Source: Bdellovibrionales bacterium (lineage in GTDB: Bacteria; Bdellovibrionota; Bdellovibrionia; Bdellovibrionales; UBA1609). From it: DNA of 64,000 nucleotides. The translations under genes were made by a program, and so were the position numbers. The notes under the pieces are model-generated. The model was not told the DNA's origin, did not search any database, and saw only the letters and a program-made list of their open reading frames with translations. Shown in pieces: positions 1,565 through 63,245 of the stretch. The stretch spans positions 1,280,362-1,344,361 of the forward strand of contig OZ241329.1 of the NCBI GenBank assembly GCA_965199825.1. The letters run 5' to 3'. The first letter of the stretch is position 1. Every line of letters starts with the position of its first letter.

Positions 1565-2968
1565 GTGATAAACTTATTACTTTTTATGGTGGGACTGCAG
1601 GTCACACGCAGTGCCCATGCTAATTTTTTGGGCAATGGCACCCAAAATTTTAATCCTATTGCCGGATCGAGCACTTATACCATGGTTCACGACCGTGACG
1701 CACAGTCTCTCAACACCCTAAGCACCTCTTTTTTTTTAAGTGAAGCCTGGAATAGCCTTCCAGATACTTTTTTAAATGGAAGTCCCGTCCATTCTAAAGA
1801 CACCACGCTATCTGGTGATTTGGGTTTACGTTACGGCATTTTGAACCACGTTGATTTTGATCTCAATGTGAGTAGCCTATTTAGTCAGCAAACCAACCGT
1901 GAGTTGAGTGGGGCTCAGTTTTCTTCTAGCGGATTAAACAATCTTCGTGTTGGTGCAAAATACAATTTTTTGGATAAGGCGGAGTGGGGATTGAGTTCGG
2001 TCATTTCGCTTGATCTGAATCAAGCACGCCAAAATCCATTTGTCGGAAACAAGGCTGGCCCCATTTATAATATTGAAGGAATTGTTGATCGAAAATTAAG
2101 ATCAACCGCTATTGCGTTAAATGTGGGTTACCGCGTTCGACGAGGCGAGAACATTCCAAACTCTGTCTACTCGGCTTTGTCGGATCAATATATTGCATCG
2201 CTCGGTGTACGCCAATTTTTAAGTCAACGGTGGTCTGTCTCAACCGAAATTGCAGCATCAAAATTTTCACATTCGGTTTATTCAACAAATTCGAATGAGA
2301 TTCCAGCCGAACTGCTTGTGACCACACGATTCAATCAAAACCAATGGATGTGGAATATGGGTGGGGGTGCCCGAATCAGTAATGGTTTATTCACACCAGA
2401 TTGGCGTTTATTTGTTGGTGTCTCATTGGATATTGGCTCTAAAAAACCAGAGCGTCACGCCCAACTCAATGCCGAAGATGTGATCCAAAACTTCGAAGTG
2501 CCCTTTGACCACATGATGAAATCACATGAATTTCGTTTGGTTAAAACCGTCGATCATGAGGGTTTTACGAGTGATAAGCCGCCTTTTGAATTAATAAGGC
2601 TTTATAAATTTGATTTTGATTTTGGTTCGACCAAACTTCGGCCGGAGTACATTGCCTTGATCGATCAGATCGGCAGTTATTTGGACTCTCCTCCACCGGT
2701 ATTAAAAGTGAGGGTTGAGGGGCACACAGATTCACTCGGACTCAGAGAAAGAAACCGAATTGTGGGGCAGGGCCGAGCCGACAATTTGGTCGGATATCTC
2801 AAAGAGCGAGGTTTTTTAAAAAGCATTCCGGTTGAGGCCGTGGGATATGGTCCTGACCGGCCCATCGCCGATAATGCCACCATCAGCGGCCGCCAGCAAA
2901 ATCGCAGAGTTGAAATTCGAATTTTGCGAAGTCCACAATCACAAAAAAATCTAAAGGATGATTTATGA
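1565..2968 (+). CDS. OmpA-family outer-membrane protein (beta-rich N-domain plus C-terminal OmpA/MotB peptidoglycan-binding domain)
   Basis: Signal-like N-terminus ending 'SAHA'. C-terminal OmpA signature 'VRVEGHTDSLG...GRADNLVGYL...NRRVEIRIL'. The stop overlaps the next start (ATGA at 2965-2968). The start codon is uncertain (non-ATG at 1565). Confidence 0.75.
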   Translation: MINLLLFMVGLQVTRSAHANFLGNGTQNFNPIAGSSTYTMVHDRDAQSLNTLSTSFFLSEAWNSLPDTFLNGSPVHSKDTTLSGDLGLRYGILNHVDFDLNVSSLFSQQTNRELSGAQFSSSGLNNLRVGAKYNFLDKAEWGLSSVISLDLNQARQNPFVGNKAGPIYNIEGIVDRKLRSTAIALNVGYRVRRGENIPNSVYSALSDQYIASLGVRQFLSQRWSVSTEIAASKFSHSVYSTNSNEIPAELLVTTRFNQNQWMWNMGGGARISNGLFTPDWRLFVGVSLDIGSKKPERHAQLNAEDVIQNFEVPFDHMMKSHEFRLVKTVDHEGFTSDKPPFELIRLYKFDFDFGSTKLRPEYIALIDQIGSYLDSPPPVLKVRVEGHTDSLGLRERNRIVGQGRADNLVGYLKERGFLKSIPVEAVGYGPDRPIADNATISGRQQNRRVEIRILRSPQSQKNLKDDL

Positions 2969-3531
2969 AAAGCCTGAGCTCGCTTTTTTGGGTTTTATTT
3001 TTGATCTCGTGCTCGCCAGCCGCTTTTGATACGGTGAAACCGACCACAGACACCACTCTCTCCCCGCGAGCGCCATCACTGGTCTATAGCACGATCACTG
3101 TCACAGGACCCTCGATTGCCGATGGTATTACGCCAACTCTGGTTACGGTTAAGCTTATGGACCAAAACAACACCCCCATCGTTGGTGCACTTTTGCAAAT
3201 GACCGTTTCAGGTATGCAAAATGTGGTGGTCAACTTCACCCCATCAAATCAAAATGGTCTTGCCTACGGAAAAATTTATTCCTCTTTTGCCGAAATCAAA
3301 ACTGTAACGGCAATTGGACAAATTACTCTAAATAAACAATTAATATTTAATCGAGTTTCTTATACCCGCAGTGTGATTGGCATTACAAGCTCCGGAAATG
3401 TCCAACGTGCGGTCACAGGCCAAAAATTTATTACCATTATCGGAAACGCGTTTGCACCCGCACCTATCAAGGACTCAACAGGAACAAAAAGAACATTGCC
3501 GTCTATCTTAGGCGGGATCGTCGATAACTAA
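2965..3531 (+). CDS. lipoprotein with bacterial Ig-like (invasin/Big_1-type) domain
   Basis: Lipobox 'FLISC'. Ig-like segment 'ITVTGPSIADGITPTLVTVKLMDQNNTPIVGALLQMTVSG'. An AAGGAG RBS for the fibre gene follows its stop directly. A similar ~185-aa lipoprotein sits at 61082-61627. Confidence 0.6.
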   Translation: MKSLSSLFWVLFLISCSPAAFDTVKPTTDTTLSPRAPSLVYSTITVTGPSIADGITPTLVTVKLMDQNNTPIVGALLQMTVSGMQNVVVNFTPSNQNGLAYGKIYSSFAEIKTVTAIGQITLNKQLIFNRVSYTRSVIGITSSGNVQRAVTGQKFITIIGNAFAPAPIKDSTGTKRTLPSILGGIVDN

Positions 3532-3545
3532 AAGGAGAACATCAA

Positions 3546-6500
3546 GTGACAACAGCAATTTTTGGTTTTGTATTTTTGATTTCAAATGCGGCTTTTGCCG
3601 CAGATCCTCCGTTGATGTTCAATTTTAGTGGAAAGCTGTTTCAATCAAACGGAGTTGATCCTGTTGAAAACGCTTCGGTCACTTTCAAAACCCAAATCTT
3701 ATCGCCCGATGGGACATGTTTGCTTTTTGAACAAACCGATTTTCGCGATATGACGAGTACGGGCGGTGTGTTTTCGTTGATGGTTGGGACCGGCACGGTA
3801 TCAAACGCAAGTGCTCTAAGTATTCCCCAAGTATTCGATAATTTAAGTCCAAAAACGGGCGCTGCAAACTGCAACTACACTCCCGCAAGTGGTGATTCAA
3901 GACGGATACGTTTTAGTTATAATGATGGCTCATCAACCATTTTGTTGCCCACCGATCAGTGGGTAGCGAGTGTGCCCTATGCTCTTACCGCACAATCACT
4001 TGGAGGCCTGGGCAAAGATGGCTTTATCCAAGTGTCTTCGAACATTACCCAAACAAATCTTGAATCTCTCACCCAAAATGTTTCAGCCATATTAAATGTG
4101 GCTTCGGGCACATCGACCACCTACGCAAAAAGTTCTGACTTACCGGTGACCAATGGGGTTTTAGATCTCTCTTCAAGAGGGGTTGAGGTTCCAAACGTAC
4201 CGCCAGCCGCGATTTTTGCTGTAAACAAAAATTATTCAGACGCCAATATTGCCGGTAGAGCAGTCGATGTGAGCACTCTTGCAAACGGGCAAGCACTGGT
4301 TTGGAATTCGACTCTGAACAAATGGCAAGCCAACACCCTGGCGATGGGAACTGTGACCTCAATCACCGCAGGTTCTGGATTAACCGGTGGAACCATTAAT
4401 GGGAGCGGCACAATCGCTTTAAATAGTGTGGGCACCGCCGGCACCTATTCAAAAGTCACTACGGACTCATCGGGACGAGTGGTGAGTGGAAGTAGCTTAC
4501 AGCAAAGCGATATGACGACAGCACTTGGTTACACCCCTCTAAACAAAGCAGGAGACACTTTGTCTGGTGACTTAAATCTTGCGGGTCATAATCTTATAAA
4601 CACAGGTTATTTAACTCTCGGAAGCGGAAAATATTTAAGTTTGGGAAGTTTTGATACCACCACAGAAGGAGCCTTGATCACCTCAACTCTTTCACCCGGT
4701 GGAATGACCTATGCCGGCGTGGAATGGTTTAACACTGCCACAAAAACAATAAAATATTGGGACGGGACACAGCCTCAGATTTTGACTTCAAGTGTGAGCG
4801 GAGGGGCACTTCAAAGTTTTAATGGTCAAACCGCCGCGACACAAACAATCGGATTTGGGTCGACGGGTCTTTTGCCGAATGTGACATCACTCAATGGTGT
4901 GCATACTTTTAATTTTCCGATGGCTTCGGGTGCAGGAATTACCGCCGGGCTAATTTCAAATTCGGATTACGCCATCTTCTCATCAAAGCAAGCAAGCCTC
5001 GGATACACACCGATTGACCGCAGCGGTAGCAACTCGATGGCGGCCAATCTAAATATGTCGCCCGATAATGGAACAACCACATTTAAGATCACCAATCTTA
5101 GGGATCCCACTGCAGCTCAAGATGCCGCAACAAAAAATTATGCCGATCAAACTGTCGCCGGAAATAAATCGTCCATCGGTATTTTAAATAATTCAACGGA
5201 CATAAACAAAATCGCTCAGTGGACAGGTACGACCACAGGTTGGATGATGACCATTCCAACAAATGGAACCGTCACCAATGTGACAGCGTCAGCTCCCTTA
5301 TCTGTCAATACGTCATCAACGACCCCACAGCTCTTTTTGCAGGCGGCCGCTATGTCAGGACAATCGTTAAGTTGGAATGGATCGGCATGGGTCAGTGGTT
5401 TTGCAAATACCAGTCAGTTGCGATCGGCTACCGGAACAAATCAATTTCCGACCAACTGTACCGCCTCCCAAACCCTTGTGTACTCCTCGGTGTCGGACAC
5501 ATTTCAGTGCACAAATATCACGGTGGCTGCAGCCACCGGAATTGCAACTCCTGGCACCTATCGCTCGGTGGTTGTGGATACAACCGGCCGCGTGACCAGT
5601 GGAACAAATCCGACAACACTTGCTGGCTACGGCATTACCGATGTGGTTCCGGTATTAACAGGTGTAGATTCCGCAAAACCCACAGCGTCGATCAACGGCC
5701 GAATATATGTAGCAGCTGATAGTAAAATTATTTATTTAGACAATGGCAGTCTATGGATCCCGGTGGCCTCTAACGGGAGTGTTGGCTCATCATTCTCGAG
5801 TCTTACAGGCGACGTTTCAGCCAGCGGGACGGGTGCAGCGAGTGCCGTGGTCAACAGCGTCGGAGGATCCACCGCACTCAACGTTCATTCCGCAGAAGTT
5901 TTGGCCAATGCCTCTACAAACTCAAACACCGCAAGCACTATTGTGAAGAGAGATGGCAGCGGCAACTTTGCGGCGAACAGTTTAAATTTAAGTTCGGTGG
6001 TTTTAAAAGACAGCTCCACAAATTCACTAACTCTGCAATCGCCTACGACTTATTCCACCTACGCACTTACGTTTCCAGCCGCAGCCCCAAGCAGCAACAA
6101 TCAGATTTTGAGTTCAACAACAGCTGGCGTTTTATCGTGGACTTCGCCTTACGCGGACACCAATGCTCGCGCGGCGATTTCGGCGAGTTCCCCTTTGAGT
6201 TACAATTCAACAACCGGTGCACTTTCGATTTCGACTCTTTCAAGTTTGACCGGAGATGTAACCGCAAGCGGGACGGGTGCAGTAAGTTCAGTCGTCAATA
6301 GTGTTGGAGGCTCCACCGCATCGAATCTTCATGCGGCAGAGGTGTTGGCCAATGCCTCCACCAATACAAACACCGCAAGCACCATTGTGAAGAGAGACGG
6401 CAGCGGAAATTTTGCGGCGAACAATATAAATTTAAGTTCGGTGGTTTTGAAAGACAGCTCAACAAATTCGCTAACTTTGCAATCGCCTACGACTTATTCT

Positions 6501-8300
6501 AGTTATGCACTTACGTTTCCAGCGGCGGCACCGAGTAGCAACAATCAGATTTTAAGTTCCACAACGGCTGGAGTTTTATCTTGGACTTCGCCTTACGCGG
6601 ACAGCAATGCTCGCGCGGCGATCTCAGCCAGTGCGCCATTGAGTTACAATTCGACAACCGGTGCAGTTTCGATTTCAAATTTACCTGTTGCAAACGGCGG
6701 AACCAACTCAACCGCAGCACTAAATAATAATAGTTTAATGATCTCAAGTGGAGGTGCTATCGTCGAGGCTTCGGCTTTAACTCACGGACAAATATTAATT
6801 GGATCTACAGGTGCTGCACCCACCGCTGCGACTCTGACTGCAGGAAGTGGAATTGCGATCACAAATGCGGCAGGTTCGATCACTATTGCTGCGAATGCGG
6901 CATTGGGCTCGGCGAGCGGGGATCTCTCAGGAACATTTCCCTCGCCGACGGTTGCAAAAATCCAAGGGGTGGCAGTGAGTTCAACCAGTCCAACCAGTGG
7001 GCGATTTATGGAATACAACGGAACAAATTGGATCGACAAATCGGTGAACATTACCGATCTTAAGAGCTCGATTGCAGGAAATTTGTTTAGCTCGCCCAAT
7101 TGCTCGGCTGCACAAACTTTATCGTGGAGTGCGATCAGTGATCAATTTAGTTGCGTCACGATTGCGATCACCGACAGCAATGTGACCTTTGGAACAAAAG
7201 CGGCAAATACAATTTTGGCTGCACCCAGTGGCAGCAGCGGAACGCCCACCTTTCGCGCACTCGCGGCCACAGATTTACCGAGCGGGGTTGTGACTGCCGG
7301 GACCTACAATACGGTCAGCGTGGATACTTACGGCCGTGTGACAGCGGGCACCAATCCGACCACTCTCTCAGGACATGGAATTACGGATGCGGTACAAAAT
7401 GCGGGAGGCATACCATCGCTCACATCTGGACTGGATGCCGCAAAAGGAAGTGCCACAACAGCTGGTCGCCTTTACGTTGCCACCGACACATTAAAAATAT
7501 ATCGCGACACCGGTTCCAGTTGGACGGTGGTGTCTTCGGCAAATGGGAGTGGTGGAACCTTAACCTCGCTCACTGCAGGCGCAGGCTTGACTGGTGGAAC
7601 TGTCACCGCAACTGGCACACTCGCGGTTGACTCCGGAACAACGGCCAACAAAATTGTTGTCCTTGATGCCAATGCCAAACTTCCCGCGGTGGATGGCAGT
7701 CAACTTACCAATCTTCCTCAACCCACTATGGCCACCTACACTAATGTCTATTCCACCGATGCAACCTCAACTTGGACAGTCCCCGCAGGGGTCACACGCG
7801 TTTATGTTCAAGTTTGGGGAGCAGGCGGCGGCGGGGGCGGCGGAAACGCCCTTGGTATGGGCGGCAGCGGCGGTGGAGGCGGCGGATATGGCGCAGCTTT
7901 TCTCACTGTTACACCCGGAGCCGCAATGGCCGCGACTGTGGGTACCGCCGGAACCGGAGCTGCCGCGGCAGCGGCAGGTGGGGCTGGGGGCAGCTCGATT
8001 TTCTCAACAATCACTGCGACGGGAGGCGCCGGAGAGATCGGCTCTGGTCAGGCCCCAATCGCGGGCGGAACTTCAAGCGCAACCATAAATGTGGCGGGTG
8101 GACGTGGATCTTCGGGGGCATCGGGTTCTTCTGGTGGCACGGGCGGAGCTGCGGGTGGTGGTGGCGGCTCCGGCGGTGGTGGATCTTCTTCGAACACGAT
8201 TGCCGGCGGTGCGGGTTCGACACCTGGTGGTGGCGGCGGCGGGGGCGGAGGAGCTGCCAGCGGCGCTGGCGGATCGGGACGGGTCACAATCTGGTATTAA
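3546..8300 (+). CDS. giant tail-fibre-like surface protein (signal peptide, fibre-family N-module, phage tail-fibre repeats, glycine-rich C-terminal domain)
   Basis: 1584-aa ORF with a GTG start 8 nt after AAGGAG and a signal peptide ending 'AAFA'. The N-terminal ~190 aa align with the N-modules of the five fibres at 41739-61072 ('FSGKLFQSNG...VASVPYALTAQSL' vs 'FQGQLLKDG...VIQSVPYAIEAERL'). It carries phage tail-fibre repeats 'GTYRSVVVDTTGRVTSGTNPTTLAGYGITD' and 'GTYNTVSVDTYGRVTAGTNPTTLSGHGITD'. Confidence 0.85.
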   Translation: MTTAIFGFVFLISNAAFAADPPLMFNFSGKLFQSNGVDPVENASVTFKTQILSPDGTCLLFEQTDFRDMTSTGGVFSLMVGTGTVSNASALSIPQVFDNLSPKTGAANCNYTPASGDSRRIRFSYNDGSSTILLPTDQWVASVPYALTAQSLGGLGKDGFIQVSSNITQTNLESLTQNVSAILNVASGTSTTYAKSSDLPVTNGVLDLSSRGVEVPNVPPAAIFAVNKNYSDANIAGRAVDVSTLANGQALVWNSTLNKWQANTLAMGTVTSITAGSGLTGGTINGSGTIALNSVGTAGTYSKVTTDSSGRVVSGSSLQQSDMTTALGYTPLNKAGDTLSGDLNLAGHNLINTGYLTLGSGKYLSLGSFDTTTEGALITSTLSPGGMTYAGVEWFNTATKTIKYWDGTQPQILTSSVSGGALQSFNGQTAATQTIGFGSTGLLPNVTSLNGVHTFNFPMASGAGITAGLISNSDYAIFSSKQASLGYTPIDRSGSNSMAANLNMSPDNGTTTFKITNLRDPTAAQDAATKNYADQTVAGNKSSIGILNNSTDINKIAQWTGTTTGWMMTIPTNGTVTNVTASAPLSVNTSSTTPQLFLQAAAMSGQSLSWNGSAWVSGFANTSQLRSATGTNQFPTNCTASQTLVYSSVSDTFQCTNITVAAATGIATPGTYRSVVVDTTGRVTSGTNPTTLAGYGITDVVPVLTGVDSAKPTASINGRIYVAADSKIIYLDNGSLWIPVASNGSVGSSFSSLTGDVSASGTGAASAVVNSVGGSTALNVHSAEVLANASTNSNTASTIVKRDGSGNFAANSLNLSSVVLKDSSTNSLTLQSPTTYSTYALTFPAAAPSSNNQILSSTTAGVLSWTSPYADTNARAAISASSPLSYNSTTGALSISTLSSLTGDVTASGTGAVSSVVNSVGGSTASNLHAAEVLANASTNTNTASTIVKRDGSGNFAANNINLSSVVLKDSSTNSLTLQSPTTYSSYALTFPAAAPSSNNQILSSTTAGVLSWTSPYADSNARAAISASAPLSYNSTTGAVSISNLPVANGGTNSTAALNNNSLMISSGGAIVEASALTHGQILIGSTGAAPTAATLTAGSGIAITNAAGSITIAANAALGSASGDLSGTFPSPTVAKIQGVAVSSTSPTSGRFMEYNGTNWIDKSVNITDLKSSIAGNLFSSPNCSAAQTLSWSAISDQFSCVTIAITDSNVTFGTKAANTILAAPSGSSGTPTFRALAATDLPSGVVTAGTYNTVSVDTYGRVTAGTNPTTLSGHGITDAVQNAGGIPSLTSGLDAAKGSATTAGRLYVATDTLKIYRDTGSSWTVVSSANGSGGTLTSLTAGAGLTGGTVTATGTLAVDSGTTANKIVVLDANAKLPAVDGSQLTNLPQPTMATYTNVYSTDATSTWTVPAGVTRVYVQVWGAGGGGGGGNALGMGGSGGGGGGYGAAFLTVTPGAAMAATVGTAGTGAAAAAAGGAGGSSIFSTITATGGAGEIGSGQAPIAGGTSSATINVAGGRGSSGASGSSGGTGGAAGGGGGSGGGGSSSNTIAGGAGSTPGGGGGGGGGAASGAGGSGRVTIWY
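5797..6678 (+). repeat. in-frame tandem duplication, 2 x 441 nt (2 x 147 aa) inside the fibre gene
   Basis: 'SSLTGDVSASGTGAASAVVNSVGGSTALNVHSAEVLANASTN...SPLSYNSTTGALSISTL' is followed immediately by 'SSLTGDVTASGTGAVSSVVNSVGGSTASNLHAAEVLANASTN...APLSYNSTTGAVSISNL'. By eye the two copies differ at about 14 of 147 residues. Confidence 0.85.
7731..8297 (+). other. glycine-rich C-terminal domain of the fibre; local GC-rich patch
   Basis: 'TWTVPAGVTRVYVQVWGAGGGGGGG...GGYGAAFLTVTPGAAMAATVGTAGTG...' followed by long G/S/A runs. The pattern resembles the bacterial/ALK-type glycine-rich domain family (recalled as Pfam Gly_rich, unverified). The GGN codon runs create many spurious P/A/R-rich shadow ORFs on the other frames. 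Confidence 0.6.
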
Positions 8301-8986
8301 TCCTCGATCGAAAAGCAATAGCCCTTTTTGATTACCGCCTTTAGATACTGAGCGGATGGCCCAATTTTTTTACGTAACGTAGAAATATGGGCATCCACTG
8401 TGTGATCCGATACATGAACCGCACTGCCCCAAACTTGACCGACAAGGTCTTGTCGACTCAGAGTCACCCCTTGGTTTTGGAGAAAGTGCATCATCAATTT
8501 AAATTCGGTGGGTGTCAGATTCAAATCTTCGCGATCACCCGAAGAAGGACTTCTAAATATTTTTTGCAATTTCAGATCAATTCCAAAATTCGCCTTTTCA
8601 AAAAAAGTCTCCATCGCGGGCGACGATCGCTTCAGTTTTGATGCCACACGCGCCTTAAACTCTCGCGGCTCAAGAGGCTTTGTGATGTAGTCATCAGCAC
8701 CCAGCGCAAAACCTTGCACCCGCTGCTCCACCTCGGACAATGCGGTCAAAAAGATGATCGGAGTGTTGGCCCAACGCGAACTCTCGCGCAGCTTTTGGCA
8801 AAACTCAAAACCATTTCCATCGGGCAATTCAACATCCAAAATAAATAGATCAACATTCAAGGTCTCAAGTTTAGCCATGGCCTCTTTGATGGTACCCGCG
8901 ATGGTGAGTTCGCAAAGAGATGAGATTGTGGACTGGACTAATTTTGCGGTGAGAGCATTGTCTTCGACACAGAGGACAGTGGGCAT
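8297..8986 (-). CDS. OmpR/PhoB-family response regulator (receiver plus winged-helix)
   Basis: Receiver 'VLCVEDN...DLFILDVELPDGNGFE...ITKP'. Winged-helix 'LTPTEFKLMMHF...VDAHISTLRKKI...GYCF'. I set the start at ATG 8986 (MPTVLCVEDN). There is a 4-nt convergent overlap with the fibre gene stop. Confidence 0.85.
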   Translation of the reverse strand: MPTVLCVEDNALTAKLVQSTISSLCELTIAGTIKEAMAKLETLNVDLFILDVELPDGNGFEFCQKLRESSRWANTPIIFLTALSEVEQRVQGFALGADDYITKPLEPREFKARVASKLKRSSPAMETFFEKANFGIDLKLQKIFRSPSSGDREDLNLTPTEFKLMMHFLQNQGVTLSRQDLVGQVWGSAVHVSDHTVDAHISTLRKKIGPSAQYLKAVIKKGYCFSIED

Positions 8987-9077
8987 GGGGGCTCCTTTGT
9001 TAATATATTTGTCTAAAGCAGACGGAGCAGCAACTGTTTTTGGGGAGGGCGAAACCAAGACGAGACTAATAGTCTAC

Positions 9078-16140: not shown

Positions 16141-16157
16141 AATGTTAACAAAAGAAT

Positions 16158-19924: not shown

Positions 19925-19931
19925 GGCCACT

Positions 19932-24188: not shown

Positions 24189-24197
24189 AGGTTTTTT

Positions 24198-54812: not shown

Positions 54813-55226
54813 TTACTGCATTAACATTTCGAGCCGAGCCATACGCTTGAGCATTTGTGCATTTTCTTTTTCAAGACGATCCATTCGAATCGTCATCTGG
54901 GCTTTTTCTGATTCAAGTTGTTCGGATTTTAATTTCAACGCTGCAAGCTCCGAATCGGTTGAGATCAATTTTGAGTAAATAGATTTAATTGACTCAATAA
55001 TTGGCGCAACCAAATGATCATAGGCCACCGATTTGATGCCGGATTGAGAATCTGTTGAGATCGCTTCGGGATAAATTTTTTCGACTTCTTGAGCGATCAA
55101 GCCAATTTGTTTATTTTTGTTAAATCGCTCTTTGTCTTGCCAGTCATAACTGACGCCACGAAGATCTAAAATATTTTCTAAAGCATTCTCAAGAGGCTGA
55201 ATATTTTCTTTGAGTCGCAAGTCAGA
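54813..55226 (-). other. S74-type intramolecular chaperone domain (fibre B)
   Basis: 'SDLRLKENIQPLENALENILDLRGVSYDWQD...IGLIAQEVEKIYPEAI...VAYDHLVAPIIESIK' plus a long coiled-coil-like tail. Confidence 0.8.
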
Positions 55227-58200: not shown

Positions 58201-58772
58201 AATGCGAGCAATTCCGCATAAGGCGTGCTCGCAAAAATCGCATCCACTTTAGATTGGGTGGTGTCGCTGCTGGTTTGTAAAAAACCCGACGACGCCGCAG
58301 TCGAAAGTCTTTCGGCTTCAAAGGCATAAGGGACGGATTCAATCACATAAGGAGCAGAAAATGCCACGGTGTCAGGTCCATCAACAAAGCTCACATAAAT
58401 ATTTCGTGAATCAGTGGGCTGCGGAGTGTAGGCGGTAGCAGATGGTGCTCCTATACAATTCAAACTCGAAAGTGTTCCCGCATTTTGAAAAACATTGGAG
58501 ACCGAAAGACCAAGATCATTGGACGTTCTTACACCTGTACCTAAAGTCACCGCAAAGATGCCGTTCGAATTTGTCATGTTGAGTGGAAAGGTTTCTTCGA
58601 ATAAAACACATTCAGGCCTCGTGTTTATCATGGGCATGCTTGTCACTCGAATGGTGAGGTCTACAGTGGGCGACTCAACAACCACGCTGTCTTTTAAAAG
58701 CTGTCCTTGAAAGGTGATGCCTTGAGGGGCAGCATAAATAAAATGTGTTAAAATTAAATTTAATAAAATCAT
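54813..58772 (-). CDS. giant fibre protein B (type-1 N-module, Gly-rich beta-helix-like segment, C-terminal S74 domain)
   Basis: 1319 aa with signal 'HFIYA|APQG'. Its N-module is nearly identical to that of fibre E. C-terminal 'SPSDLRLKENIQPL...'. Confidence 0.85.
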   Translation of the reverse strand: MILLNLILTHFIYAAPQGITFQGQLLKDSVVVESPTVDLTIRVTSMPMINTRPECVLFEETFPLNMTNSNGIFAVTLGTGVRTSNDLGLSVSNVFQNAGTLSSLNCIGAPSATAYTPQPTDSRNIYVSFVDGPDTVAFSAPYVIESVPYAFEAERLSTAASSGFLQTSSDTTQSKVDAIFASTPYAELLALINGTSTSFAGLAGGNLNLGSGRIGVGTTNPSSDLSFGGNVARTIAMERATSSQGNNLTVAAGGATSSSTNQNGGTLNLNAGMATGNGGSGIALNIVKSFQGNGTTDRSPNYAALTISPSGNVGIGEASPYAFSKLYVASDSTDVFRISNVASPRMLFEALNGSGNKFDFSNITSGIQTTTQGSEGGYLAISTAQSGTTKEVARFDGAGNVGIGTTSPGSQLDVRGQKINFSVGDYGSISMNSTPGGSSFNFQPFFGNYYLSAGTTNIGFWASQTAYNPAQQIGFDHGDILLRTAPAVPAAGVGLNFTTGLIVKNSSYVGVNTLFPMNPFSASPAQYQTGLATQSGTTITGSGTMWTSDLIGSQFVFADGVAGGTILSVSSSSSMIVSISQTKPNLNYYINYTGLQVSSSGNVGINTTSPATPLDLNGAFSLRASSAPPLSPVAQARMYFDSTANQLMISQNGSAYGSLLSTSGGQTISGAETFSGAVTASAAGTGLSVTNNANVGGSLTSSSFASSGASSVTSPAFSIPNVGGLYSNANCSIGISNCGSPVLFSYGGEIELKQAMRATTAGAYIALSTSTMTVPAFGFRDYSGIGMGADAASAKLSLITNSTSRLAIDSAGNVGIGTTSPAGILDVEGGSNSAAINLVAGNSATSTTAGAVTLQSGSNTSSGNGAAGALTLSSGTSKGNIVGGALNLNGGYAGGNGAGGPINIISGNSLYATGGALNLTAGNGGTSPGASGGNVNVTAGTGVNSGYSGGNIILQPGVGLYSAAPGKVGINTTSPSATLDVNGSMVIANGNALYGKDTAGNNQNLVTVESYNELSFGFIGMNTMNWYLGGTPRMRLTGSGFGIGTISPSEMLEVAGKIKLSGNSPSIYAARTGTDDSSGRIDFAANTGSNDGAAMTLYGPNYSGRVGQLDFIAGNNGRITFQNYNSAAYSHYMDILSNGNVGVGVLTPGYKLDVGGDLNIASANLLRFGGNQVCSSTGCTSPSDLRLKENIQPLENALENILDLRGVSYDWQDKERFNKNKQIGLIAQEVEKIYPEAISTDSQSGIKSVAYDHLVAPIIESIKSIYSKLISTDSELAALKLKSEQLESEKAQMTIRMDRLEKENAQMLKRMARLEMLMQ
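57973..58266 (-). repeat. near-identical ~294-nt tract shared with 60273-60566 (fibre B vs fibre A)
   Basis: My base-by-base comparison at a constant offset of 2300 nt finds only 3 mismatches. The flanks diverge much more. Confidence 0.8.
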
Positions 58773-58801: not shown

Positions 58802-59179
58802 TCAATGAGGAGAAATTAATTTTTCAAGGCGTTCGAAGCGTGCCGAAGATTGAGCCGCCTCAAACTCAAGCTGACTCACTTTTTCCTTAAGCACTGCATT
58901 TTCGTTTCTTAAAGCTGTGATTTGTTCATAAATTGATTTTATTGATTCAATGACAGGAGCCACAAGATGATCGTAAGCAATCGATTTAAAGCCCGATTCA
59001 GAATCAGTTTTTACAGTTTCTGGATAAATAGCTTCGACTTCTTGTGCAATCAAACCGACTTGATTTTGTTTTCCAAACTGACTTTGATTTTTCCAATGAT
59101 AATTCACACCTTGAAGCTTTAAAATATTCTCAAGAGAGTTTTGCAGCGGCTCAATATCTTCTTTTAACCGCGCATCTGA
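58802..59179 (-). other. S74-type intramolecular chaperone domain (fibre A)
   Basis: 'SDARLKEDIEPLQNSLENILKLQGVNYHWKN...VGLIAQEVEAIYPETV...IAYDHLVAPVIESIK'. Confidence 0.8.
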
Positions 59180-61072
59180 TGGCGAGGTACATCCAGTTGA
59201 GGAACACACTTGGGTTCCACCAAAACGCAAGGCATTTGCTGAAGCGATATTTATGTCGCCATTGACGTCGAGCTTGTAATTGGGCGGATTCGTCCCGATC
59301 CCGACGTTGCCGCCGCCCGAGGGCAGCAATAAAATACTACTCATAGAATTGGAGCCCCAACCCGATGTTAAATAAAGTGAGTTTACAGATCCGTATCCAC
59401 CGGGACCGCCGAGATTTGGATCGTTTCCGACAATTTGTCCGTTTGAACTTGAAAGTCCGCCGTAGCGATCAAAAGTAAAATTCGAGTAGGGTGTGGCGAT
59501 GCGAACAAGATCAACGCCCGTTGCACCTTGCACAACCAGCGGCATTGCGGCAGAAGTTGTTCCAATCCCCACATTGCCGCTAAAAGTTGCGTTTCCCACA
59601 CCATCATCAATCAAATTTCGAAATACGGGATTTCCAAATGCACCACTCATACTGCCAACAGCGCCGTTCGGGTTCATTCCAAAAAATGTTTGGTTGCCAT
59701 TGGCGGGGATAGCACCTTGTAACGCGCCCGAAATGTTGTACATCCCGAGTTGAGCTTTTCCGTAGCTCTGGCCAAAATAGGATCCTAAGGTTCCACTAAA
59801 ATCTCCGGCGTTGCGTATTCTTAAACTTGGATCTGTTATCACTGCTTCGACTACACCAGAGGGAGAATTTGTGCCCAAGCCGACATTTCCAGTGCCTCGA
59901 TCGATGAACAAAGCGGAGATGCCCGCGTAAGAACTCTCATGGCGGAGTATGTTTAATCCGCGGGGAATTATGTCTTCGTTGTTGATTGTGAATCCGTAAT
60001 AATCATCATAAAAACGCAACTTGATTCCATTGGTGTGAATGCTTCCTCCGGCACCGTTGATTCTTAGATAAGCATTCGCGGGTGTGTTGATGAGAGCTGA
60101 AAGTTCGAGCAACTCTGTTGGTGCTGAATTTCCGATCCCTACATTGCCATTTCCAAGCAAGGTCATCCTTGTCGAAGGCGTATTACTCGCAGTCCCTGAA
60201 CTTGCAGACGAAGAAGTCTGAAACTGAATCGCCGATGCACCAGCGCCCGTAGAAATCCCAGATGAAAGATTCAGTGTTCCACCATTTTGATTGGTGCTCG
60301 ATGATGTCGCACCACCCGCAGCCACAGTTAAATTATTTCCTTGCGACGAAGTCGCGCGTTCCATCGCAATCGTGCGTGCGACATTGCCACCAAAACTGAG
60401 ATCTGAACTGGGATTCGTCGTGCCCACACCAATTCTGCCTGAGCCCAAATTTAAATTACCGCCTGCAAGTCCTGCAAACGAAGTGGAGGTGCCGTTGATC
60501 AATGCGAGCAATTCCGCGTAAGGCGTGCTCGCAAAAATCGCATCCACTTTAGATTGGGTGGTGTCGTTGCTGGTTTGCAAAAATCCCGATGACGTCGCAG
60601 TCGAAAGTCTTTCGGCCTCAATTGCATAAGGGACCGACTGAATCACATAAGGTTGAGCAAAGGCGACGGTGTCGGGTCCATCAACAAACGAGACATAAAT
60701 ATTTCGTGAGTCGGTGGGGAGTGGAGTGTAGGCCGTTGCGGTTGGTGCACCCACACAATTCAAACTCGAAAGTGTTCCGGAGTTTGCAAAAACATTTGAG
60801 ATCGCAAGTCCAAGATCATTTGCGGTTCTGGTGCCCGTACCTAAAGTGACTAAAAATATTCCGTTGGATGCGGTCATATTTAAAGAATAACTTTCCTCAA
60901 ACACCGTACATTCTGGCCGTGTACCCGCAACCGGCATGCTGGTGATTTTAAAAGTGACATCGACATTTGAGTTTTCGACCACGACACCGTCTTTTAAAAG
61001 TTGACCTTGAAAAGTCACACCTTGAGGTCCGGCATAAACAAATTGGCTGAAACAAAAAATAAAGAAGAACAT
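58802..61072 (-). CDS. fibre protein A (type-2 N-module, short shaft, C-terminal S74 domain)
   Basis: 756 aa with signal 'SQFVYA|GPQG'. It has the family N-module and the C-terminal 'SPSDARLKEDIEPL...'. It starts 9 nt after the lipoprotein gene. Confidence 0.85.
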   Translation of the reverse strand: MFFFIFCFSQFVYAGPQGVTFQGQLLKDGVVVENSNVDVTFKITSMPVAGTRPECTVFEESYSLNMTASNGIFLVTLGTGTRTANDLGLAISNVFANSGTLSSLNCVGAPTATAYTPLPTDSRNIYVSFVDGPDTVAFAQPYVIQSVPYAIEAERLSTATSSGFLQTSNDTTQSKVDAIFASTPYAELLALINGTSTSFAGLAGGNLNLGSGRIGVGTTNPSSDLSFGGNVARTIAMERATSSQGNNLTVAAGGATSSSTNQNGGTLNLSSGISTGAGASAIQFQTSSSASSGTASNTPSTRMTLLGNGNVGIGNSAPTELLELSALINTPANAYLRINGAGGSIHTNGIKLRFYDDYYGFTINNEDIIPRGLNILRHESSYAGISALFIDRGTGNVGLGTNSPSGVVEAVITDPSLRIRNAGDFSGTLGSYFGQSYGKAQLGMYNISGALQGAIPANGNQTFFGMNPNGAVGSMSGAFGNPVFRNLIDDGVGNATFSGNVGIGTTSAAMPLVVQGATGVDLVRIATPYSNFTFDRYGGLSSSNGQIVGNDPNLGGPGGYGSVNSLYLTSGWGSNSMSSILLLPSGGGNVGIGTNPPNYKLDVNGDINIASANALRFGGTQVCSSTGCTSPSDARLKEDIEPLQNSLENILKLQGVNYHWKNQSQFGKQNQVGLIAQEVEAIYPETVKTDSESGFKSIAYDHLVAPVIESIKSIYEQITALRNENAVLKEKVSQLEFEAAQSSARFERLEKLISPH
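60273..60566 (-). repeat. near-identical ~294-nt tract shared with 57973-58266
   Basis: See the partner feature: 3 mismatches in about 294 nt. Confidence 0.8.
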
Positions 61073-61081: not shown

Positions 61082-61627
61082 TTACCTTTGGAAGGTTTGG
61101 GTTTGGACGCCGCCTTTGAGCGTGTAGCGGCCACTTGTTTTTACAGCTCCTGGCTCTTGGTTTCCAAAATTGCCTAGCAGCTCGTAGCGACTATCGGTGG
61201 ATGTGATTTTTTTTGCGCCAGCGATGGCTCCAAAGACCGATCGGCCCATGGGTGTTGTGAACACAACGTCGGATTTTAATACGATTGCCACATTGTTAAC
61301 CAAAATTGTTTTCACCCCCACTTGAGTGCTTCGCAAAATGCAGGTGGATACTCCATTGCTATTCGAAGTTGTGCAGGGCAGAGCGGTGACGCCACCGCCT
61401 GACACAACAGTGTAGGTGGGTCTAAATCCAACAACCGGAGTGCTGTCAGAATTTGTTAATTGGATGACGATCAATAAATCGGATTGCCCATCAGCTGCAG
61501 CAGGACCGTTGGAAATGATTTCTGATTTTTTAAAATCTTGGATCGATGCGTGTTTGAAAGTTCCAGTGATGGTGCCTTTTGAGCAGTTGACCAAAAACAA
61601 AAAAGTGAGAAAAATAAAAAAACGCAT
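61082..61627 (-). CDS. lipoprotein with bacterial Ig-like (Big_1-type) domain, first gene of the fibre array
   Basis: Lipobox 'FLVNC'. 'AADGQSDLLIVIQLTNSDSTPVVGFRPTYTVVSGG...NSNGVSTCILRSTQVGVKTILV'. It has the same size and layout as the lipoprotein at 2965-3531. Confidence 0.6.
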   Translation of the reverse strand: MRFFIFLTFLFLVNCSKGTITGTFKHASIQDFKKSEIISNGPAAADGQSDLLIVIQLTNSDSTPVVGFRPTYTVVSGGGVTALPCTTSNSNGVSTCILRSTQVGVKTILVNNVAIVLKSDVVFTTPMGRSVFGAIAGAKKITSTDSRYELLGNFGNQEPGAVKTSGRYTLKGGVQTQTFQR

Positions 61628-61718
61628 AAGCTTGTCCCCCGACGCATGCCAGGCTACCGAGCTATTTCATAGAATGTGAAACGGTTTTTTATTTTGCAAC
61701 CCACTCCGTCGCAAAAAA

Positions 61719-63245
61719 CTAAAAGTCGAAGCCAAGCCTTATTTCAAAATTTGAAATAAAAAGGGATTGTCTTCCATCGAGTGGAGATTGATTTGTTGGG
61801 GCATAGCTAAAATTATAATCATGCCACTGCGCATACCAATAAGTTCCAAGGCGAAGATGCTCAGTGAGTTGATAAATTCCACCAACAGAGCCATCAAAAG
61901 CGATTTTAGGAGTGATTTTAAAATTTGCACCGTCACTCGCCGAAGAGCTTACAGGTAATTGATAACGCGCCAACCACTCAAATTTCAAGGAAGGTGTAAT
62001 GTTGTAAGTCTGCTCAACCCCAAGGGTTGCCATATTGATAACATTGGATTTGATTTCGACATTTGCAGTGGATGTATTTAAAAACATAAATGGAACAGAG
62101 TGGTGTTGAATCCCTAAACGATAATTGGTGAGCGATTCGCTTGAAGTTTTATAAAGCACCTCACCACCAAGAGTTTTCCAACGATATTTTCCGCCAAGAA
62201 CATTCAGATTGTCTGAAGATTGAACTTGGCCTGGCGCATCCCGGTAAGTCAAATCGACACCCCAGTTTTCGCCCTGAAATCCTGAGCGCATCACAACACT
62301 TGGTCCATTGATATTTTGATATTTCACATTGCCCGCGATCGAAGGAATCGATTGCTCATAACTTTGAAAACTCATTCCACTACCAAGCCAAAACCAAAAT
62401 TGTTTGGCTAATTTCTTGGGCTCTGTGATTTCGACTGCTGTTACGGGTGGTGGAGGAGGCGGTTGTACGACTGGTTCGACAACTTCGACTTGTGCCGGCA
62501 TTCGCTTTGGAGCTTTGTAAATAGGCTCGATTTTGACTTGTTTGATTTCGGGTTGCTCAATTATCGGTGGAGCTTCGACAATTACAGGTTGTTCCACAAC
62601 AGGTGGTGGGGGCGCTGCCGCCATAATTTCGGGTTCGGCAGGTTTTGCTTCGGTGATAATATCTTTGGTTACAACTACCACCTGATTTTCTTTGATCTCG
62701 ACAATCTGACCCTGTTTTTCAACATTGATATGGCCAGTGACCACGGTGATATTAAGCTCACCCGCAGGAGCCTGATGAACTTCGACTTGGGTGTCGGAGT
62801 CTGAGCTTTTGAGATCAAGATCTTTTCCGTCATGCTGAATCTTTAGATGAAACTGTTTTTTGATGCGGCCAAAAAATCCACCGAGTTTTAGATTTAAAAC
62901 CGAATTGGATTGTTCATTGCCAATCACGATCATGCTGTTGGCATTCATTGAGAGCGAAACGCCGCTATCCAAATCAATTTCTGCTTTCGAATTTTCACCA
63001 GTAAAAATATGATCGCGATTAAAAACTTTGTCTTGGTTAGGAATTTGGCTCCACGACAATTCACTATCACTGCGCCGTCTCACATCGTTCACATGACTTG
63101 TCAGTTTACCAACCGCCATCGTTTTTTGAAATGTAGGATTAGCAGAAAATGGATCCATCACCATCACATAAGCCACTGCAGCGATTCCAAAAAGAGCGGT
63201 CGCCAGAATCCATTTTTCGAGATGTTTTTTTAAATGAGTGATCAC
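61719..63245 (-). CDS. membrane-anchored FecR-like domain / proline-rich linker / C-terminal beta-barrel protein
   Basis: N-terminal TM 'WILATALFGIAAVAYVMVM'. FecR-like 'VGKLTSHVNDVRRR...VFNRDHIFTGENSKAEIDLDSGVSLSMNANSMIVI'. Pro-rich segment 'APPPPVVEQPVIVEAPPIIEQPE...VVQPPPPPPV' (about nt 62440-62650). The beta-rich C-domain ends in 'FEIRLGFDF', a terminal Phe typical of OM barrels. Confidence 0.6.
   Translation of the reverse strand: MITHLKKHLEKWILATALFGIAAVAYVMVMDPFSANPTFQKTMAVGKLTSHVNDVRRRSDSELSWSQIPNQDKVFNRDHIFTGENSKAEIDLDSGVSLSMNANSMIVIGNEQSNSVLNLKLGGFFGRIKKQFHLKIQHDGKDLDLKSSDSDTQVEVHQAPAGELNITVVTGHINVEKQGQIVEIKENQVVVVTKDIITEAKPAEPEIMAAAPPPPVVEQPVIVEAPPIIEQPEIKQVKIEPIYKAPKRMPAQVEVVEPVVQPPPPPPVTAVEITEPKKLAKQFWFWLGSGMSFQSYEQSIPSIAGNVKYQNINGPSVVMRSGFQGENWGVDLTYRDAPGQVQSSDNLNVLGGKYRWKTLGGEVLYKTSSESLTNYRLGIQHHSVPFMFLNTSTANVEIKSNVINMATLGVEQTYNITPSLKFEWLARYQLPVSSSASDGANFKITPKIAFDGSVGGIYQLTEHLRLGTYWYAQWHDYNFSYAPTNQSPLDGRQSLFISNFEIRLGFDF

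What the first reader, a model, noticed from the sequence alone, without database searches (positions are those of the whole stretch)
1565..63245. The same gene context at both fibre loci, an OM beta-barrel protein then an Ig-like lipoprotein then fibre(s), suggests a dedicated export or anchoring module
Seen in the sequence:
- Locus 1 runs OmpA-family barrel protein (1565-2968), an ATGA overlap, a 188-aa Big_1-like lipoprotein (2965-3531), a 14-nt gap with AAGGAG, then the fibre.
- Locus 2 on the minus strand runs FecR/Pro-rich/barrel protein (63245-61719), a 91-nt gap, a 181-aa Big_1-like lipoprotein (61627-61082), a 9-nt gap, then fibres A-E.
- The two lipoproteins have the same size and layout: a lipobox, one Ig-like domain with 'ADG....L..V.L......P.VG', and a ~70-aa tail.

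Inference:
- The fibres have Sec signal peptides but carry no autotransporter barrel, T9SS CTD, T1SS signal or TPS domain that I can recognise. How they cross or attach to the outer membrane is therefore unexplained.
- The conserved lipoprotein, possibly with the neighbouring barrel protein, is the obvious candidate for a partner that docks the shared N-module.
- The two barrel proteins do not look homologous to each other, so that part of the parallel is weaker.
Basis: inference. Interest (0 to 1): 0.7.

Follow-up and report, generated by a model that had tools for sequence, protein, structure and literature searches.

The report
Lipoprotein partner gene of Bdellovibrio fibres
A small, undescribed outer-membrane lipoprotein gene sits directly in front of the prey-binding fibre genes of Bdellovibrio-like predatory bacteria in many genomes, usually behind an outer-membrane barrel gene, which makes it the best current candidate for the unknown element that holds these fibres on the cell surface.

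Summary
At both loci the order is outer-membrane (OM) protein, then a ~185-aa lipoprotein (LP), then fibre(s), with the stated spacings. The fibres are mosaic adhesive trimer (MAT) proteins: NCBIfam Bdello_MAT_N scores 101-106 bits against a cutoff of 60.

- **The two lipoproteins** are homologous (34% over 74 aa, E 1e-7). They share a lipobox, an intimin/invasin-like Ig domain (AF2 plus Foldseek) and a conserved but low-confidence ~55-aa tail. At least ~70 clusters of this family exist in public data, and no NCBIfam model covers it.
- **Linkage is strong in one direction.** Of 9 loci found through the lipoprotein, 8 have a MAT gene adjacent. Of 13 loci found through the fibre, 7 have the lipoprotein directly upstream and at least 4 have none.
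- **Lipoprotein type tracks N-module type** (Mantel r=0.90).
- **An OM barrel precedes the lipoprotein** in 10 of 15 loci. Three unrelated barrel families are involved, each carrying a peptidoglycan-binding or inner-membrane-tether region.

My best reading, at about 0.45 confidence, is that the lipoprotein docks the constant N-module and the barrel provides a wall-tethered platform. An export role is untested, and B. bacteriovorus HD100 could not be examined. No paper found (to 2026) names the MAT anchor.

The parts
1565..2968 (+). OM protein with an N-terminal beta-barrel-like region (~300 aa) and a C-terminal OmpA peptidoglycan-binding domain. It is the first gene of the type-1 module.
   Evidence: Pfam OmpA scores 55 bits at residues 351-447. 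Its orthologue sits directly upstream of the lipoprotein in L023 (38.7% identity over the full length, E 3e-104). The N-terminal region has many amphipathic strand candidates. A promoter-like site lies at 1531-1558.
2965..3531 (+). Type-1 fibre-associated lipoprotein (LP1, 188 aa): lipobox LISC, an Ig-like domain at about residues 40-130, and a low-confidence tail at 140-188.
   Evidence: ATGA overlap with the upstream gene. Big_1 scores 33.4 bits. In the AF2 model the Ig domain has pLDDT above 90 and the tail 44-60. Relatives occur in L013, L022 and L023, each directly upstream of a MAT gene.
3546..8300 (+). MAT fibre 1 (1584 aa): Sec signal peptide, MAT N-domain, a shaft with a 444-nt tandem duplication, and a Gly_rich_2 C-terminus.
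   Evidence: NCBIfam Bdello_MAT_N scores 104 bits against a cutoff of 60. Pfam Gly_rich_2. Tandem repeat at 5823-6676.
8297..9058 (-). OmpR-type response regulator that is conserved next to type-1 modules.
   Evidence: Pfam Response_reg plus Trans_reg_C. Orthologues of about 46% identity flank the module in L013 and L023.
61719..63245 (-). Envelope protein (508 aa): an N-terminal hydrophobic anchor or signal, a FecR-like domain, a Pro-rich linker, and a ~235-aa C-terminal OM beta-barrel-like domain ending in RLGFDF.
   Evidence: Weak FecR hit. The barrel domain is conserved at 37-46% identity upstream of the lipoprotein in L001/5, L004, L006/20, L007, L008 and L009/21. Its N-terminal region varies between loci: FecR, linker only, or LysM.
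61082..61627 (-). Type-2 fibre-associated lipoprotein (LP2, 181 aa): lipobox LVNC, an Ig-like domain at residues 35-125 with two conserved Cys, and a conserved tail at 126-181.
   Evidence: 14 homologues of 49-56% identity. In the AF2 model the Ig domain has pLDDT 70-89 and the tail below 50. Foldseek matches intimin and invasin Ig domains. Tail conservation is 0.63, against 0.77 for the Ig domain and 0.30 for the signal peptide.
58802..61072 (-). MAT fibre A (756 aa) with an S74 C-terminus.
   Evidence: Bdello_MAT_N scores 106 bits. Peptidase_S74.
54813..58772 (-). MAT fibre B (1319 aa) with an S74 C-terminus.
   Evidence: N-module HMM hit. Peptidase_S74.
51021..54791 (-). MAT fibre C (1256 aa) with an S74 C-terminus.
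   Evidence: N-module HMM hit. Peptidase_S74.
46680..51011 (-). MAT fibre D (1443 aa) with an S74 C-terminus.
   Evidence: N-module HMM hit. Peptidase_S74.
41739..46655 (-). MAT fibre E (1638 aa) without an S74 domain.
   Evidence: Bdello_MAT_N scores 101 bits. No S74 hit; weak YadA_head and BppL_N hits.

Best explanation
**What the genes are.** The fibres are MAT (mosaic adhesive trimer) adhesins of a Bdellovibrio-like predator. The small gene in front of them encodes an OM lipoprotein that is a dedicated accessory of the fibres' constant N-terminal domain.

**Proposed mechanism (inferred, not shown)**
1. The lipoprotein is lipid-anchored in the outer membrane.
2. Its conserved C-terminal tail, which does not fold confidently on its own, folds against the trimeric MAT N-domain, probably by adding beta strands to it. 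This tethers the fibre base to the membrane.
3. One lipoprotein serves all fibres of an operon that share the same N-module.
4. The barrel protein encoded upstream is an OM platform. It is tied to the cell wall (OmpA-C or LysM domain) or to the inner membrane (hydrophobic anchor, FecR-like domain, Pro-rich linker). It holds the lipoprotein or exposes it, so that a fibre pulling on prey is mechanically coupled to the envelope.

**Shown here**
- Family membership of the fibres.
- Homology of the two lipoproteins.
- Lipobox, Ig fold and conserved tail.
- Gene linkage, and co-variation of lipoprotein type with N-module type.
- Recurrence of barrel genes upstream.

**Inferred**
- Physical contact between the proteins.
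- Topology of the lipoprotein in the membrane.
- Anchoring as the role, rather than assembly or export.
For: **The fibres are MATs.** Bdello_MAT_N scores 101-106 bits against a cutoff of 60.

**Lipoprotein followed by fibre.** Of 9 loci found through the lipoprotein, 8 have a MAT N-module gene adjacent, usually with a 4-nt overlap. These are P0011, P0006, P0005, P0145, P0175, P0112, P0074/P0182 and P0061. For P0061 the adjacency rests on consecutive locus tags, EOP05_06015 and EOP05_06020.

**Fibre preceded by lipoprotein.** Of 13 loci found through the fibre, 7 have the lipoprotein directly upstream.

**The partner is the constant part of the fibre.**
- One lipoprotein precedes five fibres whose N-modules are 76-90% identical but whose shafts and tips differ.
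- Lipoprotein and N-module identities co-vary across 13 pairs (r=0.90, Mantel p=2e-4). Both lipoprotein types co-exist in this one genome, so the pairing is not simply species phylogeny.

**The tail.**
- It has low AF2 confidence even with a 79-sequence alignment.
- It is nearly as conserved as the Ig domain.
- In L009/L021 the lipoprotein is reduced to a lipobox plus tail, and still precedes a fibre.

**The barrels.**
- A barrel gene lies upstream in 10 of 15 distinct lipoprotein loci.
- Three unrelated families are involved: an OmpA-type barrel, the FecR/LysM-linker barrel, and a PF13505 barrel.
- Their periplasmic regions vary: OmpA-C, LysM, or hydrophobic anchor plus FecR.

**The question is open.** The paper says the surface element bound by the N-domain awaits identification. 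No solved structure matches the N-domain or either lipoprotein. Neither a September 2025 review nor full-text searches of the held library, PubMed Central to August 2026 and bioRxiv to July 2026, name an anchor.
Against: - There is no direct evidence of binding. All support comes from gene context and sequence.
- MAT genes in L010 and L011 have no lipoprotein within 10 kb, and none is found in the available upstream sequence of L012 or in L015-17. The lipoprotein of L024 has no fibre nearby.
- The MAT type closest to the NCBIfam seed (L018, 215 bits) could not be assessed, and B. bacteriovorus HD100 itself could not be examined.
- The barrel is absent in 5 of 15 loci, and the barrel families are unrelated. 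Its role is therefore the weakest part of the model.
- An inner-leaflet lipoprotein would face the periplasm, whereas the fibres are surface-exposed. Surface exposure of the lipoprotein or its tail is assumed.
- The tail of the window's type-1 lipoprotein is not significantly similar to type-2 tails.
- Co-variation of adjacent genes is also expected from shared descent alone.
Confidence: 0.45

Rival explanations
1. The lipoprotein is a periplasmic assembly or export factor for the fibres. It would act as a chaperone, pilotin or usher-like helper that binds the N-domain transiently, keeps it competent, and hands it to the neighbouring barrel or to a general secretion system. It would not be a permanent anchor.
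For: - The lipoprotein is encoded first and is often translationally coupled to the fibre gene by 4-nt overlaps.
- An Ig-like domain plus a strand-forming tail recalls donor-strand chaperones (general knowledge).
- The tail is predicted to be disordered when alone.
- An OM barrel is encoded next door.
- The fibres have Sec signal peptides and no recognisable OM-translocation domain.
Against: - The barrels are small (about 170-300 aa) and belong to three unrelated families. That fits poorly with a dedicated pore for a folded trimer about 1,000 residues long.
- S74 fibres already carry an intramolecular chaperone.
- Several MAT genes lack the lipoprotein.
- No similarity to known chaperone, usher or pilotin families was found.
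Confidence: 0.25
2. The lipoprotein is an independent small surface protein. It could be a co-adhesin, a spacer, or a shield against self-binding. On this reading it is merely co-expressed with the fibres and does not bind the N-domain.
For: - Its Ig domain is of the type used in intimin and invasin adhesin stalks. The same Ig type is repeated up to about 30 times in giant adhesins that match the lipoprotein profile.
- One orphan lipoprotein exists.
- In L025 the lipoprotein lies between fibre genes rather than ahead of them.
Against: - Lipoprotein type tracks N-module type, not tip type.
- The most distinctive conserved element is the tail, not the Ig domain. The Ig domain can be lost while the position in front of a fibre gene is kept (L009/L021).
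- Linkage in 8 of 9 loci is stronger than would be expected from co-regulation alone.
Confidence: 0.15
3. The barrel and the lipoprotein form a split, inverse-autotransporter-like unit. The ~20-residue linker after the lipidated Cys would thread through the barrel, putting the Ig domain and tail on the cell surface, where the tail captures the fibre. This is a more specific form of the anchoring model.
For: - The best structural matches of the Ig domain are intimin D00-D0 and invasin.
- The barrel orthologue in L007 has a signal peptide, a LysM domain, a linker and a barrel, which is the N-terminal layout of intimin (intimin layout from general knowledge).
- The barrel domain is about 235 aa, the size of a 12-stranded barrel (a crude estimate).
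Against: - No Pfam hit to the inverse-autotransporter barrel or to any other barrel family.
- Type-1 loci use OmpA-type or 8-stranded PF13505 barrels, which have no room for a threaded chain.
- The barrel is missing in 5 of 15 loci.
- No structure prediction of the barrel was possible.
Confidence: 0.1

Closest known systems
MAT (mosaic adhesive trimer) fibres of Bdellovibrio bacteriovorus HD100 (Caulton et al. 2024, PMC10769870; NCBIfam NF053851 Bdello_MAT_N)
   Same: - The window's six fibres carry the curated MAT N-domain immediately after a Sec signal peptide.
- Four end in Peptidase_S74 and two in other tips, matching the S74/NS74 split of the published family (paper text).
   Different: - The paper describes only the fibres. 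It gives no partner, no lipoprotein and no barrel.
- The window's N-modules score about 100 bits, against 215 bits for the type nearest the model seed. They are therefore a divergent branch.
- It is untested whether HD100 fibres have the same partner.
Inverse autotransporters (intimin, invasin, InvD/E, FdeC)
   Same: - The lipoprotein's Ig domain is structurally closest to their Big_1 stalk domains.
- An OM barrel with a periplasmic peptidoglycan-binding domain is part of both systems (LysM in L007, OmpA-C in locus 1).
   Different: - Here the barrel and the Ig domain are separate polypeptides.
- The Ig protein is lipidated.
- The barrels show no sequence relation to the inverse-autotransporter barrel.
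- The adhesive part is a third protein, a phage-like trimeric fibre.
Type V pilus anchor subunits of Bacteroidota (Mfa2/FimB; from general knowledge, not tested here)
   Same: A lipidated OM protein with an Ig-like fold anchors a fibre, and C-terminal strands are thought to insert into the neighbouring subunit.
   Different: - There is no sequence similarity.
- The fibre here is a homotrimer of very long chains, not a polymer of pilins.
- No protease-driven strand exchange is indicated.
TraA/TraB of Myxococcus xanthus (from general knowledge; NCBIfam NF033763 hit on the OmpA domain only)
   Same: A polymorphic cell-surface adhesin is encoded together with an OM protein that combines a beta-barrel with a C-terminal OmpA peptidoglycan-binding domain. 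This is the same architecture as the 467-aa protein.
   Different: - The match covers only the generic OmpA domain (51 bits against a cutoff of 700).
- TraA is not a MAT fibre.
- That system has no Ig-like lipoprotein.
Phage tail-fibre attachment and tail-fibre assembly proteins (from general knowledge)
   Same: - The fibres are phage-like: four have S74 intramolecular chaperone domains, and fibre A matches a phage long-tail-fibre chain in the PDB.
- A small accessory gene lies adjacent to the fibre gene.
   Different: - The accessory gene is upstream and encodes a lipoprotein, and there is no virion.
- Foldseek against viral models gave only generic Ig matches.
- Scans of viral contigs found neither the lipoprotein nor the N-module.

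Membership tests
MAT fibre family (NCBIfam NF053851 Bdello_MAT_N) | Conserved beta-rich N-terminal domain of about 130-160 aa immediately after a Sec signal peptide. | tested here: met
   Fibre 1 scores 104 bits, fibre A 106 and fibre E 101, against a cutoff of 60. Fibres B-D match the N-module HMM at E<1e-76. AxA-type signal peptidase sites are visible in the translations.
MAT fibre family | C-terminus is either a Peptidase_S74 chaperone/protease domain or an alternative (NS74) tip. | tested here: met
   S74 is present in fibres A-D. Fibre E has no S74 domain, and fibre 1 ends in Gly_rich_2.
MAT fibre family | Homotrimeric fibre exposed on the predator surface. | not testable with these tools
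   This needs EM and immunofluorescence, as in PMC10769870.
Bacterial OM lipoprotein | Signal peptide ending in a lipobox with an invariant Cys, and no inner-membrane retention residue at +2. | tested here: met
   LP1 has LFLISC|S. LP2 has LFLVNC|S, with an atypical Asn at -1. Most family members have [STAL][GA]C. The Cys column is at least 90% conserved. Lipidation itself was not tested.
Pfam Big_1 (PF02369) Ig-like domain | Score at or above the gathering cutoff of 34.9 bits. | tested here: inconclusive
   LP1 scores 33.4 bits and LP2 21.2 bits, both below the cutoff. The AF2 model plus Foldseek to intimin D00-D0, invasin and InvD (E 8e-5 to 9e-4, query TM-score about 0.45) supports the same fold class.
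Inverse autotransporter (intimin/invasin) system | A 12-stranded inverse-autotransporter barrel and Big_1 passenger domains in a single polypeptide. | tested here: not met
   The barrel and the Ig protein are separate genes. The barrel regions gave no Pfam barrel-family hit and no relative in the PDB by sequence.
OmpA family (PF00691) | C-terminal OmpA-like peptidoglycan-binding domain. | tested here: met
   The 467-aa protein scores 55.4 bits against a cutoff of 27.2, at residues 351-447. The N-terminal barrel region has no family hit.
FecR (PF04773) | FecR domain at or above the gathering cutoff of 24 bits. | tested here: inconclusive
   The 508-aa protein scores 21.3 bits. Its orthologue in L004 scores 22.5 bits over the same region.
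OM beta-barrel protein (508-aa protein, C-terminal 235 aa) | Even number of amphipathic transmembrane strands and a C-terminal aromatic beta-signal. | tested here: inconclusive
   The protein ends in RLGFDF, and its orthologues in RLGFEF or RLGLEF. A crude scan found many amphipathic strand candidates. There is no structure model and no family hit.
Chaperone-usher, two-partner, T9SS, T1SS or autotransporter export | An usher, TpsB or TPS domain, a T9SS C-terminal domain, RTX repeats, or an autotransporter barrel in the fibres or their neighbours. | tested here: not met
   Pfam and NCBIfam scans of the fibres and flanking genes show none of these. Type II secretion cannot be tested from sequence.

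The most novel reading that the evidence does not exclude
The lipoprotein, together with a wall- or inner-membrane-tethered OM barrel, is the long-sought surface anchor of MAT fibres. This would be a new three-part adhesin display module in which a lipidated Ig protein captures the base of a phage-derived trimeric fibre through a fold-on-binding C-terminal tail. The module would be modular enough for the barrel to have been replaced at least three times by unrelated barrels.
Probability: 0.3. Interest if true: 0.75.

Novelty: new variant of a known kind. Interest (0 to 1): 0.6.

Why it matters
**The open question.** MAT fibres are the best current candidates for how Bdellovibrio recognises a wide range of prey. 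The 2024 paper that defined them left open what holds their invariant N-terminal domain on the predator surface.

**What this adds.**
- A specific, testable candidate: one small gene family plus a neighbouring barrel.
- One lipoprotein appears to serve many fibres. Deleting it might therefore get around the redundancy that made single-fibre deletions uninformative, and give a clean phenotype for the whole family.
- It would show how a bacterium mounts phage-type fibres on its own envelope without a virion baseplate.
- The module could be used to engineer which fibres a predator displays.

Tried and rejected
1. **Pseudo-complex prediction.** A plain-letter fusion aligned badly with unpaired homologues, so I did not submit it. 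No multimer model was possible.
2. **Wide neighbourhood surveys.**
   - The pattern-based genome scan returned only 10 loci and the metagenome scan only 2.
   - Broad lipoprotein alignments were too diverse to search with.
   - Viral-contig scans for the lipoprotein and the N-module found nothing.
3. **Third protein search.** The search with the N-module profile returned only short proteins, so B. bacteriovorus MAT loci could not be reached.
4. **Remote homology between the two barrel families.** Rejected: hhalign probability 0.3% and no hit with the barrel HMM.
5. **L019.** A divergently encoded TIG-domain lipoprotein behind a barrel-like gene looked like an analogue by eye. Its tail does not match the tail HMM (E=24), so I do not count it.
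6. **Tail homology between the two lipoprotein types.** Not significant for the window's LP1.
7. **Viral origin of the L015-17 context.** No PHROG hits.
8. **Sequence search of solved structures** for the N-module, the lipoproteins and the barrels. Nothing found.

Full report
**Observation**

The ORF map matches the finding exactly.
- Locus 1, plus strand: a 467-aa protein (1565-2968), a 188-aa lipoprotein (LP1, 2965-3531) and a 1584-aa fibre (3546-8300). The first two overlap by ATGA, and the 14-nt gap before the fibre contains AAGGAG.
- Locus 2, minus strand: a 508-aa protein (63245-61719), a 91-nt gap, a 181-aa lipoprotein (LP2, 61627-61082), a 9-nt gap, then five fibres down to 41739.
- The sequence between the loci encodes chemotaxis-like and two-component proteins. 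It contains no secretion machinery.

**What the fibres are**

NCBIfam has a curated model, NF053851 Bdello_MAT_N ("mosaic adhesive trimer family chimeric fiber protein").
- Fibre 1, fibre A and fibre E score 104, 106 and 101 bits against a cutoff of 60.
- Fibres B-D match my N-module HMM equally well.
- Fibres A-D end in Peptidase_S74. Fibre E and fibre 1 do not; fibre 1 ends in Gly_rich_2.

This is the architecture described by Caulton et al. 2024: a signal peptide, a conserved ~130-aa beta-rich domain, then S74 or non-S74 tips (PMC10769870). [quoted passage not shown] Neither its text nor its supplement mentions a lipoprotein. A September 2025 review adds nothing on anchoring. Only four papers in the library mention these genes. 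No solved structure matches the N-module or either lipoprotein by sequence.

**The lipoproteins**

- LP1 and LP2 align at 34% identity over 74 residues (E 1e-7). Both hit Pfam Big_1 just below its cutoff.
- AF2 gives a confident Ig sandwich for each: LP2 residues 35-125 at pLDDT 70-89, and LP1 residues 40-130 above 90. The last ~50 residues stay at pLDDT 35-60 even with a 79-sequence alignment.
- Foldseek puts the LP2 model next to intimin D00-D0, invasin, InvD/E and FdeC.
- A profile search of 1.84 billion representative proteins found 717 matches. About 70 of the best 150 are full-length proteins of 150-250 aa. Most have a lipobox and a recurring tail motif of the form G-G-Y-K-V-x-x-S-V-Q-G, often seen twice. 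The remaining top hits are giant adhesins with many copies of the same Ig domain.
- Source names, where given, are Bdellovibrionales, Pseudobdellovibrionaceae or unclassified MAGs.
- The family has no NCBIfam model.
- Among LP2 orthologues the tail is almost as conserved as the Ig domain: 0.63 against 0.77, compared with 0.30 for the signal peptide.
- In a leave-one-type-out test the tail of the window's LP1 is not significantly like type-2 tails, although several other type-1 tails are.

**Neighbourhood survey**

I called ORFs in 26 fetched loci and scanned them with HMMs for the lipoprotein, the N-module and the barrel.

*Loci found through the lipoprotein: 9 distinct.*

| Locus (query protein) | What follows the lipoprotein |
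|---|---|
| L001 (P0011), L002 (P0006), L004 (P0005) | MAT fibre, with a 4-nt overlap |
| L022 (P0145) | MAT fibre start, on an 887-bp contig |
| L023 (P0175) | MAT fibre |
| L025 (P0112) | The lipoprotein lies between MAT genes |
| L026 (P0074) and the P0182 locus | MAT fibre |
| P0061 | Adjacent locus tag to a MAT protein, EOP05_06015 and 06020 |
| L024 (P0086) | No fibre within 10 kb on a 909-kb contig |

So 8 of 9 have a MAT gene adjacent.

*Loci found through the fibre: 13 distinct.*
- The lipoprotein is immediately upstream in 7: L005, L006/20, L007, L008, L009/21, L013 and L014.
- It is absent within 10 kb in L010 and L011. None is found in the available upstream sequence of L012 or in L015-17. 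All of these N-modules pass the NCBIfam cutoff.
- L018 and L019 cannot be decided.

*Further points.*
- L023 reproduces the window's locus 1 gene for gene: an OmpA-family protein (38.7% identity to the 467-aa protein), the lipoprotein, and a MAT fibre with a Gly_rich_2 end.
- An orthologous OmpR-type response regulator flanks the module in the window, in L013 and in L023.
- In L009/L021 the lipoprotein is only 99 aa, a lipobox plus tail with no Ig domain, and it still directly precedes a fibre.

**Which part of the fibre does the lipoprotein go with?**

- In locus 2, one lipoprotein precedes five fibres. Their N-modules are 76-90% identical while their shafts and tips differ.
- Across 13 lipoprotein/fibre pairs, lipoprotein identity and N-module identity correlate (r=0.90, Mantel p=2e-4).
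- Type 1 comprises window locus 1, L013 and L023. Type 2 comprises window locus 2 and L001-L008.
- Both types occur in this one genome, so the pairing is older than the species and has been kept as a unit.
- Shared descent of adjacent genes also produces such a correlation. This is therefore supportive, not decisive.

**The barrels**

- The C-terminal ~235 aa of the 508-aa protein ends in RLGFDF and has many amphipathic strand candidates. It is conserved at 37-46% identity upstream of type-2 lipoproteins in seven distinct loci.
- Its N-terminal part is variable:
  - a hydrophobic anchor plus a FecR-like domain, with or without two extra beta domains;
  - an anchor plus a linker only;
  - in L007, a cleavable signal peptide plus a LysM domain.
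- Type-1 loci use an OmpA-family protein (window and L023) or a small PF13505 barrel (L013).
- The families are not detectably related to one another or to any solved structure.
- In total a barrel gene lies upstream of the lipoprotein in 10 of 15 distinct loci where the upstream sequence is available.
- OM barrels are a small fraction of genes (my rough expectation from general knowledge is a few per cent; not measured here). Three unrelated families in the same position therefore argue for a functional coupling. It is not universal.
- The common theme is an OM barrel joined to something that grips the cell wall or the inner membrane.

**Mechanism**

The evidence fits best with the lipoprotein as a dedicated partner of the MAT N-domain.
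- I propose that the lipid-anchored protein captures the fibre base with its fold-on-binding tail.
- I propose that the barrel protein supplies a wall-tethered OM platform.
- The direct steps are all inferred: contact, topology, and anchoring as opposed to assembly.
- Rivals are a transient assembly or export helper, an independent co-expressed surface protein, and a more specific split inverse-autotransporter-like arrangement.
- Export through the small barrels is unlikely for a folded trimer.
- Type II secretion, which leaves no sequence mark (general knowledge), is an unexcluded ordinary route across the OM.

**Limits**

- B. bacteriovorus HD100 loci could not be fetched.
- The scans of public collections returned few loci.
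- No multimer prediction was possible.
- The MAT type closest to the NCBIfam seed (L018, 215 bits) sits at a contig edge behind what looks like another fibre's tip. Whether the model organism uses this partner is therefore unknown.

**Verdict**

The lipoprotein is a real, undescribed, fibre-linked family and a good candidate anchor.
- It is not obligatorily adjacent to every MAT gene, and the export part of the idea has no support.
- This is a new variant of a known kind: an adhesin with accessory OM proteins. It is of clear interest to the predatory-bacteria field, because it makes an explicitly open question testable.

Noticed in passing
Locus of P0182 (no DNA held). It has the same gene order as L026:10001-11562.: A 236-aa lipoprotein of this family overlaps the start of a 661-aa protein with an Lcl_C (C-type-lectin-like) end. 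Next come a bAvd gene and a reverse transcriptase (RVT_1), which together indicate a diversity-generating retroelement next to a MAT-type fibre. In L026 the matching downstream gene carries the MAT N-module. A serine recombinase, an FtsK-like gene and HTH genes lie upstream, which suggests a mobile element.
   Followed up: partly
L015:8001-8996, L016:2782-3777 and L017:8001-8996: A 331-aa protein with a signal peptide, a MAT N-domain (115 bits) and a phage tail Collar domain. It was seen on 24 contigs of up to 360 kb, whose other genes are mostly small ORFans. No lipoprotein is nearby. Ten neighbouring proteins have no PHROG hit, so the host or virus is unknown.
   Followed up: partly
L009:2069-2368 and L021:5246-5545: The fibre-associated lipoprotein is reduced to 99 aa, a lipobox plus the conserved tail without the Ig domain. 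It still sits between the barrel gene and a 970-aa MAT fibre.
   Followed up: partly
window 8297-9058 (-): An OmpR-type response regulator lies convergent with fibre 1. Orthologues of about 46% identity sit next to the type-1 module in L013 and L023, each near a hybrid histidine kinase. This suggests dedicated regulation of the module.
   Followed up: partly
window 40954-41760 (-) and 39391-40884 (-): A 268-aa secreted LamG_3 (concanavalin-like) protein overlaps the end of fibre E by 22 nt. It is followed by a GH5 cellulase-family protein with a possible lipobox (LFNNC). L004 also has a large LamG_3 protein near its fibre. These may be further members of the operon.
   Followed up: no
window 5823-6676: Fibre 1 contains a 444-nt (148-aa) tandem duplication in its shaft: 1.9 copies with 86% matches.
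   Followed up: yes
window 12795-25823: A chemotaxis-like cluster lies between the two fibre loci. It contains two CheA-like hybrid kinases with CheW and receiver domains, an Hpt-receiver protein, a PAS-rich MCP, CheB, CheR and a GAF-PAS histidine kinase.
   Followed up: no
window 41739-46655 (-): Fibre E, the only fibre of locus 2 without S74, has weak hits to YadA_head repeats and to BppL_N, a phage lower-baseplate N-terminal motif.
   Followed up: no
L019:5374-7721 (-): Divergent from a MAT gene lies a 591-aa protein with a barrel-like C-terminus, followed by a 189-aa TIG-domain lipoprotein whose end (GSGIKLYGGIIG) resembles the tail motif by eye. The match to the tail HMM is not significant (E=24).
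   Followed up: yes
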